Translations under genes and position numbers: made by a program
Notes under the pieces: model-generated
The model's database searches: none
Told to the model about the DNA's origin: nothing
Seen by the model: the letters and a program-made list of their open reading frames with translations, nothing else
Assembly (NCBI GenBank): GCA_964016885.1
Contig: OZ024759.1
Span: forward strand, 34,906,001 to 34,970,000
Source of the DNA: Eledone cirrhosa
Taxonomy: Eukaryota
Length of the DNA: 64,000 bases
Reading direction: 5' to 3'
Shown here: positions 12,851 to 64,000 of the stretch, piece after piece
Layout of the letters: the number at the start of each line of letters is the position of its first letter
Position numbering within the stretch: position 1 is the stretch's first letter

Positions 12851-13088
12851 GATCAAGTTTATCCCGGGTTCAATCGGGGGTAACCACAGTAAGTAAGGTA
12901 CTCAATACATAGCAGAGTATAAATATTTAATATAGTAAGGATTCTACAGGACTAGAACTGTTTCATTCGGGAGAAATCACCAGGAAGCTGACTGTTCAAG
13001 TAATTACCTACTTGGACAGTCGGCTTCCTGATGATTTCTCCCGAATGAAACAGTTCTAGTCCTGTAGAAGCCTTACTATATTAAATAT
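12851..13088. mobile_element. Fold-back hammerhead element, family E (Penelope-like terminus), next to (TA)n; other fragments at ~43691-43797 and ~50203-50330
   Basis: ~80-bp arms 12923-13002/13009-13088 plus an unpaired tail 12851-12922; the minus-strand core is mutated (CTGGTGA). Confidence 0.8.
13022..13072 (+). ncRNA. Type I hammerhead ribozyme, family E
   Basis: ggcttc-CTGATGA(13028-34)-tttctcccgaat-GAAA(13047-50)-cag-ttctagtc-ctg-TA^gaagcc; stem I 6 bp, GUA cleavage triplet. Confidence 0.85.
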
Positions 13089-16000
13089 AGAATAAGGAGC
13101 AGATATTGCAATAGCCTGGGTTTCAAAGGCCCTCAAATCTTCAACCAGTTGCCAAGAGAGACCTACATGGTGTGGATGTGGATGTTTTCAAGAAACATTT
13201 CAACATCCTGTTATACAGGATCCCCGACGAGCACACAGCACATTACAACGGTAAACTAAGGGCAGCAGCAACGAACTCCCTCTTGCACCAATGGCCAGCC
13301 AACACAGGGTGGAGATATAATGTGTAGCAGCAAGGGCGGTGCCCCAGCATGGCCTCAGCCGGATGGCTAGAACAGGTAAAAGGGTAAAAAAGTAAAATAG
13401 TATATATGTATGTATATATATATATATATATATATATATATGTGTGTGTGTGTGTGTGTGAATATATAAACGTATGTATGTATATTCATATGTGTGTATA
13501 TATATATATATATGTGTATGAATATATAAACGTATGTATGTATATTCATACGTGTGTATATATATATGTGTGTGTGTGTGTGAATATATAAACGTATGTA
13601 TGTATATTCATACGTGTGTGTATATATATATATATATCAGTATAAGTTGGACACTGAATGTCTGTCTGTATAGGGATACGTATACTTCTTCATTTAATAT
13701 ATGTGTGTGTATATATATATATATGTGTGTGTGTGTGTGTTAAGTATTTCCGAAGAAAAAGCAAAGGAAAGAAGAGTGCTCTATGTATAGAACAGAGCTA
13801 TTTAATTAGAAAGGGAACAACACAACATATAACTACTCCATTACCAAAGGTTTCTGGATCACAGACAATAATAACATATGTCTAGTTCTCTCATCAGTTA
13901 TATATTGTGTTGTTCACTTTCTAATTAAATATATATATGAGAAAATGAGGGCTTTTTCATTAAAACAAGCGAGATGTCCTACACGGGTGAAAGTATAAGG
14001 AAAAGAAATCGAAAATGTAGCTGGAGTCGTTTTAAGAATATTTATTTATTTCCTTTATCGGTTTCACAGTTCTTATGCTTTGCAAAAGTAGAATTGAGAT
14101 GGAGGGTTTGTGGTTTGTCTTGCCAAAACATACGTACGTACATACATACATACATACATACATTCATTCATTCATTCATTCATTCATTCATTCATGATGA
14201 CTGCCCCCTCGTTATGGCCATTGCACGATATACCATTATTAATAGTTATTAATAATAATATACCATTATTAATAGTTATTAATTAATTCTATTGTGCAAT
14301 GCCTGTGCGTGAAGATATTTTTTTAAGTGAGGAAAGACTGTGCACTGAGCCAATCCCACTCTCTGAGCGACAGTAGCTATAACCCGAAAAGAAGAAAAGA
14401 TCATCATCATCGGTAACTACTGAGCCGTAGGTTTTATATCGGAGTTATCCCAGATTCCTGAGTTGCCTTCTCCTAGAAGTATGCCCTGACAAAAACTAGG
14501 GGTCCTTCACTCCCAGTGGTTTAACCGGGCGGTACATGTCTATATACATATTTACACACTTTTGGATGGCCGTTGACTCTTATGAGTTCTTCCGCCCTTT
14601 GTCAGGTTTTGTTTTTTGACCTGCGGGGTGTCCAAAATCACCCTCCTCACCAAGTAAACTTGGTGGGGTTGCCGGTTTAGTCGCCGATGACCCGACCATG
14701 CGACAGATTGTACTGGGTTACATGTTACCAGTAGTACTCAAGAGTGACCCGACATACATGCATACATACATACATACATACATACATACATATATAGGTA
14801 TAAATATAAAATAGATCAGAAAGGCAGGAAGCCGGATGGCTACTGTAACTGCTTTACGCATGCGTGGTTTAGTCAGTTCGGCCATTTCGGGAAGAACACA
14901 TCGTTACTTGATTTGTCTTCAACAATTTGAAATATGTTGAAATATATTGGGGAAAACATCACCTTGTTTTGTTTATCAACCTTTACCCTTATTTATATAT
15001 ATATATATATATACATATATATATATATATATATATACATACATATATGCTGCATTTTACCGGCTTTTTAGAACTTAGTCATTTATTACATATCACATAC
15101 ATATATATATAACGAAGGGACTGTAGTAAGGAACCAGGTGAACCATAACGCACCAGAGTCCTCGATACTTTGGGTAGTAGAGTGGGTAATAGGAATCCAG
15201 AAATAGCCGTCGAAACGACTTGAGCTCTGTCGTCAGGGTCCTGAACCTTTTTCATGTATATATATATTCATATATGAGTGAGGTTGTCCGTTCGATTCCC
15301 AGACCGGGTGATGCGTTATGTCCTTGAGCAAGACACTTTATTTCACGTTGCTTCTTCTACCTGGAGTTGCGACCGATAGATAGTATTAGCAATTGGAAAG
15401 ACCAATGGAAACATTGTTTCCTCGGTCCGATTTGACGAAAGTCGATCGACTTTCGATATATATCTATATTTTGCAGTGGTTGACTGAAGAAAAAGGTATG
15501 TTCGTTTTTCCGTTGTCCTGTCGCTTCCTTTTTTTTCCTTATCCATAACGTGTGAGCCATGCGGTCATTTTTAATACTGTTATTATACAAAACATATAAA
15601 TAAATTTACGGTAGAATAACATAACTAATATGTTTTAAATATATACATAAATAACATTACAAATGCTTAGATAACATTATAAATTGCTCGCGATTCTTTC
15701 AGAAAGATATATTCTTTTAATGTTGCAATATTAAAGAAAATGTAAAGGAAGGGGTGAACAACGGAGCCAACACCAAAGCAAAGACAGCAACGTCGCGAGG
15801 AGTACCTCAATCTCTCTAATGATTTCTGAGGCAAGCCAGCACACTCGCAGCGTTGCCTCGGGTGATGGCGAGGCTAATGCGCTGGAACAAAAAACAAAAC
15901 AAAATAAAATGCGTTCCCCAACACAGCATAAGTATGGCCCCACCCCAGTAGAAATCCCATTAGACCTTCATACCACACGTAACTTAACTAAAAATATAGC

Positions 16001-16436
16001 TAACAATGTTTCAAAACCAACGCATCTAAAGCTGAGTCCGAGGCCCACGGTTGTACGAATGCACTGCGTAATTGTCCAGATAGGAACGCTTGACTACTCA
16101 ACAAAACATTCTTATCGAACGACGCCAAGTACGAATGTGATATCCCAAACAACTCAACGAAATTTTATATATATAAATGAATAATATATATATATATATA
16201 TATATATAAAAGAACTGGATTCGCAATCGCGAGGTTGTCAGTTCGATTCCCAGACCGGGTGATGCGTTATGTCCTTGAGCAAGACACTTTATTTCACGTT
16301 GCTTCTTCTACCTGGAGTTGCGACCGATAGATAGTATTAGCGATTGGAAAGACCAATGGAAACACTGTTTCCTCGGTCCGATTTGACGAAAGTCTATCGA
16401 CAATATATATATATATGTGTGTGTGTGTACATATAC

Positions 16437-16593
16437 ACGAGGTTCCGACTAGAAAGTTCATAGGCTGACTATAAAGGAGTGATGCTAGAGCTGTGAAATC
16501 TTGCATGGATTATTTTCAACTCTTATTAATAAGTGCGTTGTTTCTTTCCAGGGACTATGTTGGTCAACCTATAAGCCTTGCATACGACCCTCG
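16437..16593. mobile_element. Mariner-derived MITE; inverted relative at ~22358-22552
   Basis: CGAGG...AAAGTTCATAGGCTGAC termini and ...CCCTCG; shared interior between the two loci. Confidence 0.65.
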
Positions 16594-17107
16594 TGTTTAG
16601 AACGTGTGTTTGTTTAGTTTAAATGTTTAGAATTAGCGTTAATAGTCATTTACTTAAATATTTTGGGATATATTTTGGTGGTTAGCGAATTGAATTTGCA
16701 ATCGTGACGTTGCGAGTTCGATTCTCGGACCGGGCGATGCGTTTTCCATTTTGTTCTTTCTGCCAAGATTTGCGACCGGTAAATAGTATCAGCAATGGAA
16801 AGACCGATGGAAACATTGTTTCCTCGGCCTGATTTGATGAGTTCCACTTCACTCGGTAAGCGAATGAGGTCTGAGATCTTGTCGATCGATTCGATTCACT
16901 GAAAGATTCATCGATCTTTTAATCAATGAAGTGTGTATACATTTTGGGGGGACACCCTGTGTGTGTGTGTGTGTGTTTATATATATATATGTATGTGTAC
17001 ATATGTGTATGTATATATATGTATATATATATACATATGTATGTGTACATATATATATATATGTGTGTATATATATATATATATATACATATGTATAATT
17101 ATATATA

Positions 17108-62505: not shown

Positions 62506-63146
62506 GTTCAACTCCCCTTGAAACACACCAAGGAAAATAAACTAAAACTAAACTAATTAGTTAAGAATTGAAAGTTTAACGAACCTCCTGCCTACAAAGA
62601 GTCTTAGATAATTTAGATTAGATTAAATTGATTAAACTGTTGACATTGTAATGTAATGAGTTTATGATTAATGCATTTATTCTGTTCCTTGGTTTATTAA
62701 AGTTTTTAAAAAAAAGATCAAGTCTGATGTGAACTGAGATTGTTGTTTGTTTTTGATTTTTTTGGGGTTGTTGTTGATGTTGTTGATGATGTGTTGTGGT
62801 GATGGTGGTTGTTCTCTGCAGTTCTGAGTTCAAATCCAACCGAAGTCAACTTTGCCTTTCATCCATTCAAGGTCGATATAAAAAAATATCAGTAAAGTAC
62901 TAGGTTATATCTCTTTCAGTCCCTGGAGAGGAGATGGGCTCTGCCAGGGTTTCATTTAAATGGATTTTCCCACAGACCCGCCCTCCCTCCCTCCCATTCA
63001 CATTCCCACTATAATTACTTTCCCCAACCCCTTCCCACTACAATTACTTCCCCTCCTGACCCCTTCTCACTACAATTATTCTCCTCCCATATTGTGATAT
63101 ATACACAGTGAGAAGAACAATTTGTAACAGAAAAGTATATATATAT

Positions 63147-63451
63147 GTTAGGTAATTCCAAAGGAAAAAAGAGTGCTCTATGTATAGAACAGAACTATTT
63201 AATTAGATAGTGAACAACACAAAATATAACTACTCCATTACCAAAGGTTTCTGGATTACAGACAATAATATACGTCTAGATCGGTCGTCAGAGATGTTAT
63301 GGATATAGATATGATTTTAAATCTCATTTCATATCTTTTATCCATAACATCTCTGTCTGACGATCGATCCAGACGTATATTATTATTGTCTGGGATCCAG
63401 AAACCTTTGGTAATGGAGTAGTTATATGTTGTGTTGTTCACTTTCTAATTA
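63147..63451. mobile_element. Fold-back hammerhead element, family D (plus core CTGACGA 63357-63, GAAA 63400-03, GUA^ at 63412); fragments at ~13742-13931, 41857-41915, 42720-42800
   Basis: Inverted arms ~63201-63315/63327-63450, unpaired tail, (TA)n flanks; stem I ctctgt/atggag. Confidence 0.82.
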
Positions 63452-63495
63452 TATATATATATATATATATATATATATATATGTGTGTGTGTGTC

Positions 63496-64000
63496 TGATG
63501 GTAGCTATGATGCTTCCATAGGCGGTATGCCGGTGGAGCACTCTATGCTCCTACGGAGCAGAGTATGATAGAATGGAAAACGAAAGATCAGTGATGCATC
63601 TGAACTCAATTTATTGTGTGTTACAATTGTTTCTCCGGCAGACAGTTCGAGACGCGATCATTGTATGGATCTGTCAGATCCGCACAATGATCGCGACAGC
63701 TTGAGACGCGATCATTGTATGGATCTGTCAGATCCGCACAATGATCGCGACAGCTTGAGACGCGATCATTGTATGGATCTGTCAGATCCATACAATGATC
63801 GCGACAGCTTGAGACGCGATCATTGTATGGATCTGTCAGATCCGCACAATGATCGCGACAGCTTGAGACGCGATCATTGTATGGATCTGTCAGATCCGCA
63901 CAATGATCGCGACAGCTTGAGACGCGATCATTGTATGGATCTGTCAGATCCGCACAATGATCGCGTCTCAAGCTGTCTGCCGGAGAAATAATTGTAACAC
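63496..64000. mobile_element. Family H fold-back element with six tandem 54-bp palindromic units (63641-63964); runs off the window end
   Basis: Outer arms gtgttacaattgtttctccggcagacag (63618-) / ctgtctgccggagaaataattgtaacac (-64000) contain the GAAA-caattg-TA half core; tail homologous to 36670-36720. Confidence 0.8.

What the first reader, a model, noticed from the sequence alone, without database searches (positions are those of the whole stretch)
12897..63545. Shared 3'-subterminal motif YWGAGYRCY in the tails of nine ribozyme-element families
Seen in ribozyme-sense orientation about 25-75 nt from the element 3' end: TAGAGTGCT (B, rc 21114-22), TTGAGTGCT (C, rc 24391-99; I, 51615-23), TTGAGTACC (E, rc 12897-905), TTGAGTACT (A, rc 21587-95; F, rc 20556-64), TAGAGCACT (D, rc 63172-80), TAGAGTGCT (H, rc 63537-45), CTGAGTGCT (G, 20886-94). 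The surrounding tails are mostly dissimilar. Inference: a conserved cis-signal such as an RT/endonuclease recognition or 3'-processing element that unites these families. I know of no description of it.
Basis: seen in the sequence. Interest (0 to 1): 0.75.

Follow-up and report, generated by a model that had tools for sequence, protein, structure and literature searches.

The report
Twin hairpins mark Penelope copy ends
The shared motif is one strand of a small bulged hairpin, kept across distant members of one group of telomerase-related jumping genes, usually in two copies that each lie a few bases beyond one of the two places where inserted copies stop, so it likely tells the copying enzyme where to start.

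Summary
Real, and more than a 9-mer. All nine sites are present (35 window hits, 8 expected). The motif is the 3' strand of a hairpin: RCUC/GAGY stem, 2-nt bulge, covarying upper stem, then RCY. Eight of the nine 'ribozyme families' are 3' stubs of coding Hydra-clade Penelope-like elements (PLEs); F has no ORF tied to it. Full-length copies of six families carry two hairpins before the ORF; insertions end about 3-9 nt 5' of hairpin 1 (tail-less) or hairpin 2 (tailed, so hairpin 1 looks subterminal). Two-armed insertions nearly always pair one end of each kind (31 of 33). The twin also stands in 17 of 27 distinct metagenome Hydra relatives, always sense. Best reading (0.62): an RNA signal that positions reverse-transcriptase priming, explaining the PLE 'tail'. 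Against: family E uses its second end without a canonical second hairpin; junctions of D and G were not found; no binding or RNA data. No description found in nine paper searches. This scan reached the same reading before on other pieces of this genome; that is not independent support.

The parts
12897..12918 (-). Family E hairpin 1 (tail ends at 12850; fold-back arms span 12923-13088, left arm stops just before the hairpin)
13775..13798 (-). Family D hairpin 1, second copy (G-C base pair at the stem base); hammerhead core starts at 13897
20556..20618 (-). Family F hairpin 1 with a 42-nt loop; hammerhead core starts at 20731; tail ends at 20483
20872..20894 (+). Family G hairpin 1 (1-nt bulge); fold-back 20783-20867; tail ends at 20931
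21114..21141 (-). Family B hairpin 1 (one upper-stem substitution in this copy); fold-back 21142-21522; hammerhead core starts at 21246; tail ends at 21059
21587..21613 (-). Family A hairpin 1; fold-back 21619-21738; tail ends at 21542
23457..23483 (+). Family A hairpin 1, further copy; fold-back 23337-23451
24391..24417 (-). Family C hairpin 1; hammerhead core starts at 24528; tail ends at 24331
25630..25657 (-). Family B hairpin 1, intact copy; fold-back 25658-26009
26097..26124 (-). Family C hairpin 1, further copy; fold-back 26125-26393
36705..36713 (-). Family H copy truncated inside the hairpin (3' strand and tail only)
41241..41267 (+).
42125..42153 (-). Family C-like hairpin 1; fold-back 42159-42458
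42748..42771 (-). Family D-like copy with a decayed 5' strand
43731..43752 (-). Family E hairpin 1, further copy
44069..44096 (-). Family B-like hairpin 1
46381..46407 (+). Family A hairpin 1, further copy; fold-back 46251-46374
50272..50294 (+). Family E-like hairpin 1
51602..51623 (+). Family I hairpin 1 (2-bp upper stem); tail ends at 51685
63172..63195 (-). Family D hairpin 1; fold-back 63196-63455; hammerhead core starts at 63291; tail ends at 63146
63537..63564 (-). Family H hairpin 1 (5-6 bp upper stem); tail ends near 63495

Best explanation
The motif is the 3' strand of a conserved bulged hairpin of Hydra-clade Penelope-like retrotransposons, usually present twice between the ribozyme and the start codon, and each copy likely positions the element's reverse transcriptase to begin copying a few bases 5' of it. 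Shown: the hairpin, its covariation, the link of eight families to Hydra-type ORFs, the twin arrangement in six families, the two end sites and their spacing, the one-tail-per-insertion bias. Inferred: a transcript running across the repeat-ORF junction folds both hairpins; the protein binds them; the GIY-YIG domain cuts both strands of a (TA)n target; one DNA end primes on the short UA-rich stretch before hairpin 1 (tail-less arm), the other before hairpin 2 (arm that carries the tail and with it hairpin 1); the two 5'-truncated cDNAs are joined head to head. The hairpin in use is not copied, which is why hairpin 2 is seen only in tandem or full-length copies.
For: Structure: in metagenome relatives, with the upper stem left out of the search pattern, the first upper pair is Watson-Crick in 35 of 35 hairpin-1 variants (14 C-G, 21 U-A; shuffle mean 26.6, 0 of 10,000), second 30 of 35, third 24 of 35; 59 of 60 pairs in 20 hand-picked families of this genome. 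Twin: predicted from family A, then found 853 times against 34 control, with a Hydra ORF after hairpin 2 in 26 of 30 loci; H, F 153 against 0; 17 of 27 distinct metagenome 5' regions have two cores 55-71 nt apart, 6 one, 4 none, 0 of 27 antisense, 0.04 expected. Ends: in sets chosen without the motif, A 25 of 30, E 25 of 30 and D 22 of 30 copies stop at site 1 (6-8 nt before hairpin 1) or at the tail end; A: 24 ends 8 nt before hairpin 1 and 43 ends 6 nt before hairpin 2 of 85; in F the site keeps its distance to the 5' strand although the loop is 42 nt; 6 informative metagenome ends lie 2-6 nt before a stem. End pairing: 31 tail-less+tailed, 2 tail-less+tail-less, 0 tailed+tailed. Prior biochemistry: a Poseidon PLE primes internally at two sites that bound the tail, needs RNA 3' of them, cuts both strands and is predicted to be a dimer (PMC11167929). 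Model of the family A protein matches telomerase RT best.
Against: Family E (about 150 junctions) has no canonical hairpin 2, only a bare 4-bp GCAC/GUGC stem 9 nt after site 2, yet 11 of 30 E copies end there. 5 of 30 E ends lie 17-20 nt before hairpin 1 and 5 of 30 D ends 2 nt before it. No junction was found for D or G. Hairpin 2 has no significant pairing beyond the first upper pair (11 of 27 against 9.1) and several hairpins are weak (-2 to -5 kcal/mol). Two double-tailed insertions exist (L202; L212). Five Neptune-type families in the same genome make tails without this hairpin. TA microhomology blurs each junction by 2-4 nt. Families are related, so shuffle counts overstate independence. 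No binding, probing or transposition data.
Confidence: 0.62

Rival explanations
1. The hairpins load the protein on its own RNA (or control translation of the ORF 15-60 nt downstream); the end sites are set separately by UA-rich microhomology to the (TA)n target that merely lies nearby.
For: Hairpin 2 ends 15-56 nt before the inferred start codon in relatives; both sites begin with TA-like bases; E uses site 2 without a canonical hairpin.
Against: Other UA-rich stretches nearby are rarely used; the distance to the 5' strand is similar in unrelated families and hosts, including F with its long loop; F keeps both hairpins with no ORF following.
Confidence: 0.15
2. The hairpins direct a cut in the RNA just 5' of them (a nuclease site or an unknown self-cleaving fold), and reverse transcription starts from those real RNA 3' ends.
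For: Would give the same two end sites; in the anole PLE, RNA-seq read ends fall on the two start sites (PMC11167929).
Against: In that system priming is internal on uncut templates with long 3' extensions; the Rfam scan listed no family match over these hairpins among the 150 of 215 rows shown.
Confidence: 0.1
3. The signal acts as DNA: the endonuclease recognises the tail in the new DNA (double-stranded or as a sense-strand hairpin) and trims the integration intermediate.
For: The Drosophila Penelope endonuclease needed the tail sequence for cleavage, and Craig et al. ascribed the tail to EN-mediated resolution (passages); GAGYRCTC is near-palindromic.
Against: Hairpin 2 is absent from finished tailed ends and hairpin 1 from tail-less ends, so the DNA would have to be longer first; upper stems use G-U pairs on the sense strand.
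Confidence: 0.09
4. The conserved 9-mer is a host transcription-factor site of an internal promoter and the stems are incidental.
For: PLE repeats hold promoters (PMC3846280 passage); the 3' strand is more conserved than a stem needs.
Against: Compensatory changes across a variable-length loop; strict link to copy ends.
Confidence: 0.04

Closest known systems
Hydra clade of C-terminal-endonuclease Penelope-like elements (Craig et al. 2021, PMC8557442; read: section 11, passages, supplement parts 1, 2, 52, 53)
   Same: RT plus C-terminal GIY-YIG with CxCx5C linker, DKT, RW[KR], CxxC and CxH; type I hammerhead with palindromic stem III; (TA)n targets; inverted 5'-truncated copies. By eye, 4 of the 6 consensus sequences in their File S7 carry the hairpin (Hydra-2_Amil and Hydra-2_Ajap at the 3' end, Hydra-1_Ajap twice at the 5' end, Hydra-1_Crog as variants).
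   Different: The paper does not mention the hairpin ('stem-loop' 0 hits in the main text; 'hairpin' 0 hits in the supplement; the main text was not searched for 'hairpin' alone). Tails here are about 50-145 nt rather than 30-40; several families have long 3' UTRs.
Poseidon PLE of Anolis carolinensis, PAc (Frangieh et al. 2024, PMC11167929; read: parts 1-2 of 4 of the text, supplements 1 and 3)
   Same: Two internal RT start sites bound the tail; RNA 3' of them is required; both DNA strands are cut; dimer predicted.
   Different: Different clade; sites lie inside the ORF; the paper names an AC-rich stem loop at the start site but no conserved or doubled element; the GAGY-RCY hairpin is not in the RNA stretch printed in its Fig. 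S1B (by eye).
Non-LTR retrozymes / PLE-associated minimal hammerheads (Cervera and De la Pena 2014, PMC4209133, passages; Li et al. bioRxiv 10.64898/2026.07.22.740005, part 1 of 5 and passages)
   Same: Type I hammerheads derived from PLE repeats, very high copy number.
   Different: Those are tandem, non-coding repeats; here most families are truncated ends of coding elements in head-to-head pairs.
Template-positioning RNA elements of telomerase and 3' stem-loops of LINEs (recalled, not checked in a call)
   Same: A small structured RNA element fixes where an RT works on an internal or terminal template.
   Different: LINE stem-loops lie 5' of the priming point and are copied; this one lies 3' of it and is left out; it is doubled.

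Membership tests
Hydra-clade PLE | Single ORF with PLE-type RT and C-terminal GIY-YIG endonuclease | tested here: met
   Family A 717-aa ORF; fold matches telomerase RT in the top five hits; ORF hits tied to B, C, I, H, E, G, D. Not met for F.
Hydra-clade PLE | CxCx5C linker before the endonuclease | tested here: met
   Read in the family A translations and in G.
Hydra-clade PLE | RWK and DKT motifs; CxxC and CxH around the EN glutamate/asparagine; no CCHH | tested here: met
   Family A has RWR, DKT, CxxC, CxH and lacks the CxxC inside the GIY-YIG core that the Neptune-type ORFs have; relatives have RW[KR].
Hydra-clade PLE | Canonical hammerhead in the terminal repeat | tested here: met
   CUGANGA...GAAA cores in window copies of B, C, D, F; family A has a U3-A8 core variant that folds as a hammerhead. 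Cleavage not tested.
Hydra-clade PLE | Insertion into (TA)n | tested here: met
Hydra-clade PLE | Generally under 3 kb | tested here: inconclusive
   Family A: 2.15-kb ORF plus 0.8-1.3 kb 3' region, about 3-3.5 kb.
Hydra-clade PLE | Placement in the Hydra clade of an RT tree with the published references | not tested
   Published sequences were only read. Family A is 36-52% identical to the other Hydra-type ORFs and 22% to a Neptune-type ORF.
Non-LTR retrozyme | Non-coding tandem units each with a hammerhead | tested here: not met
   Eight families continue into coding ORFs and stand head to head. F is unresolved.
Neptune-clade PLE | CX2-5CxxC linker and CCHH endonuclease | tested here: not met
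   Present in five other families of this genome, whose tails lack the hairpin; absent from the hairpin-bearing ORFs.
RT-positioning RNA element (works-like claim) | Binds the RT and fixes the priming site | not testable with these tools
   Only positional and covariation evidence.

The most novel reading that the evidence does not exclude
One RNA carries two copies of a 20-25-nt hairpin that dock the two subunits of a Penelope RT-endonuclease dimer, so that both ends of a double-strand cut are primed from the same template at two set points. This would be a telomerase-like template-positioning element in the sister group of telomerase, the cause of the one-sided tail and head-to-head structure of PLE insertions, and a portable signal that makes any upstream RNA a template for insertion into (TA)n.
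Probability: 0.3. Interest if true: 0.82.

Novelty: new variant of a known kind. Interest (0 to 1): 0.62.

Why it matters
How Penelope-like elements choose their internal start sites, and why insertions carry a tail at one end only, is open; the one in vitro study located the sites but no signal. A short hairpin conserved across Hydra-type elements from different hosts, doubled and set a few bases from each end site, turns that into a simple mutagenesis test. It also gives annotators a marker for element ends in a genome where the pattern occurs about 170,000 times, and a possible link to how telomerase frames its template.

Tried and rejected
Rfam scan of the window: 215 matches to E 1, the 150 rows shown all miRNA-type hits on microsatellites or fold-backs and under their gathering scores. 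Pfam GIY-YIG search found Neptune- and Poseidon-type ORFs, not the partner; Pfam names 0 of 3 Hydra ORFs; no PDB sequence match. Two-hairpin search for A, D, E together was swamped by a satellite. Strict hairpin-2 searches for D, E, G gave 4, 23 and 5 mostly chimeric hits. First end-mapping by BLAST over-extended into AT-rich flanks and was replaced. MAFFT did not align the variable loops, so no covariance model was built and pairs were counted in scripts. Homodimer job on residues 1-480: no verdict. MITE or Helitron reading rejected because ends are one-sided and lead into RT ORFs. Paper searches that showed no description of the hairpin; subscription journals, Repbase and Dfam notes are not covered, and the GenBank file and figures of PMC11167929 could not be read.
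Full report
Observation. Reading the flanks showed a complementary RYTC upstream of nearly every element copy and a short second stem next to it. The unit is: RYTC, upper stem, loop, upper stem, 2-nt bulge (mostly UU or UA), GAGY, RCY. Twenty of the 35 matches are element copies in sense, 7 are echoes of the near-palindrome on the other strand, 8 are unrelated (classes partly by eye). In the 3.0-Gb genome the hairpin pattern matches 171,868 times against 18,615 for the reversed control.

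Anatomy in the window. Most copies read (TA)n, inverted arm, centre, forward arm, hairpin, 26-73 nt, (TA)n; the inverted arm stops 0-6 nt short of the hairpin. This is the layout described for Penelope-like elements (PLEs): an inverted 5'-truncated copy and an optional one-sided tail (PMC8557442; PMC3846280). Four of the nine listed copies keep a whole hammerhead core.

What the families are. Walking upstream from family A tails reached an RT plus C-terminal GIY-YIG ORF with the marks of the Hydra clade. Its predicted structure (mean pLDDT 83.7) matches telomerase RTs in the top five Foldseek hits. Related ORFs, roughly 30-55% identical to A, are joined to B, C, I, H, E, G and D (one locus, L387). 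So eight of nine families are 3' stubs of coding elements. For F no Hydra ORF was found within 1.5 kb in 10 of 10 loci or within about 8 kb downstream in 3 of 4; the fourth has a truncated piece 5.5 kb away. F may be non-autonomous.

Two hairpins, two end sites. Full-length A copies carry a second hairpin after the tail end and before the start codon. I predicted the same for the other families. A two-hairpin pattern gave 853 matches against 34, 26 of 30 inspected loci running into a Hydra ORF; H and F also have it. Copy ends were counted in three sets chosen without the motif. A (30 loci found by the endonuclease): 15 stop 8 nt before hairpin 1, 10 at the tail end, 2 run through, 3 lack the 3' end (one tailed copy classed by eye). 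E (30): 14 stop 6 nt before hairpin 1, 11 at the tail end, 5 at 17-20 nt (by eye). D (30, some paralogous): 8 at 6 nt, 5 at 2 nt, 14 tailed, 3 other (by eye). Over the loci held then, A has 24 ends at 8 nt from hairpin 1 and 43 at 6 nt from hairpin 2 of 85; B, C, I, F cluster 7-10 nt before hairpin 2 at the left edge of a 2-4 nt TA microhomology (this pool is enriched for tailed copies). In F the 5' strand lies 55 nt from the GAGY strand and the end site follows the 5' strand.

One tail per insertion. Of 126 tailed terminal copies, 52 had a visible inverted arm: 40 tail-less, 8 ending otherwise, 4 with tail, of which 3 rows are two loci where the 'arm' is the junction running into the ORF. A second count of 53 head-to-head pairs gave 31 tail-less+tailed, 2 tail-less+tail-less, 0 tailed+tailed, 11 with a run-through and 9 unclassed. 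Independent choice at about even odds would make a third of tail-containing pairs double-tailed. Two exceptions were seen (L202; L212).

Other hosts. A scan of metagenome contigs returned 80 of 215 Hydra-type loci. Of 27 distinct regions before the ORF, 17 hold two cores 55-71 nt apart, 6 one, 4 none (these four look truncated), none on the antisense strand, 0.04 expected from shuffles. Fifteen of 30 distinct 3' regions hold hairpin 1, mostly 49-71 nt after the hammerhead core. Of 29 comparisons of a 3' end with a junction, 6 were informative and end 2-6 nt before a stem, 10 run through, 13 are other subfamilies or contig ends. With the upper stem left out of the pattern, its first pair is Watson-Crick in 35 of 35 hairpin-1 variants in two states; hairpin 2 keeps only that first pair. 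Four of six published Hydra consensus sequences (coral, sea cucumber, copepod) show the hairpin by eye. Five Neptune-type families of this genome have tails without it.

Mechanism. A Poseidon PLE primes internally at two sites that bound the tail, needs RNA 3' of them, cuts both strands and is predicted to dimerise (PMC11167929). The hairpins sit exactly where such a 3' requirement would be, one per site. I infer that each positions a priming event, one per side of the cut (0.62). That both events use one RNA and a dimer is a further step (0.3).

Against. Family E has about 150 junctions (154 matches against 1; 19 of 20 inspected share it, 16 with ORF hits) and no canonical hairpin 2, only a bare 4-bp stem with the third pair reversed, yet uses site 2 freely. 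D and G junctions were not found. Minor end sites exist in D and E. The stems are weak, the families are related, the 31 hairpins were hand-picked, and nothing here shows binding or expression.

Novelty. The elements belong to a known clade. The hairpin and its link to the end sites were not found in nine paper searches nor in the parts of five papers read. My reading was noted before I looked at earlier findings; one search then showed that this scan had reached the same reading on other pieces of this genome. Those notes are not evidence; one of them suggested the both-ends-from-one-RNA wording that I then tested. Added here: the held-out covariation test, the end-pair count and the family E exception.

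Noticed in passing
G000:C1:14234975-14242635 (L168-L196): A 58-bp satellite made of a TA-rich start, family A hairpin 1 and a short spacer, at least 7.6 kb long.
   Followed up: no
L131 (G000:C24:27666500-27674499), upstream of the ORF: Family A hammerhead has a U3-A8 core (UUGAGAA) with a palindromic stem III, the variant class mentioned in PMC4209133.
   Followed up: partly
L216-L229: Family F keeps both hairpins and the hammerhead but is followed by non-coding sequence with internal repeats; a candidate non-autonomous partner.
   Followed up: partly
L061, L063, L064, L073, L077 and window:13935-14030:-: Five Neptune-type families share an optional tail that starts at a TA and mostly holds ACY-GTGT; in two of them a similar short word recurs after the second end site. 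Three have hammerhead-like cores that depart from CUGANGA.
   Followed up: partly
PMC11167929 Fig. S1B: The printed template RNA seems to hold two GGC-loop-GCC hairpins about 41 nt apart; order of letters read from a PDF, not mapped to the start sites.
   Followed up: no
window:63560-64000: The family H copy has a tandem 54-nt palindromic unit upstream of the tail.
   Followed up: no
window:35414-35490: A short stretch that reads like a ferritin exon (recalled likeness, not searched).
   Followed up: no
window:26417-29220 and 39945-40397: Decayed RTE-type LINE reading frames (family name recalled); they hold three of the unrelated motif matches.
   Followed up: no
L285, L287, L293, L297, L302, L339: Many metagenome Hydra relatives have a further small stem ending in GAGUAG between the hammerhead and hairpin 1.
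   Followed up: no
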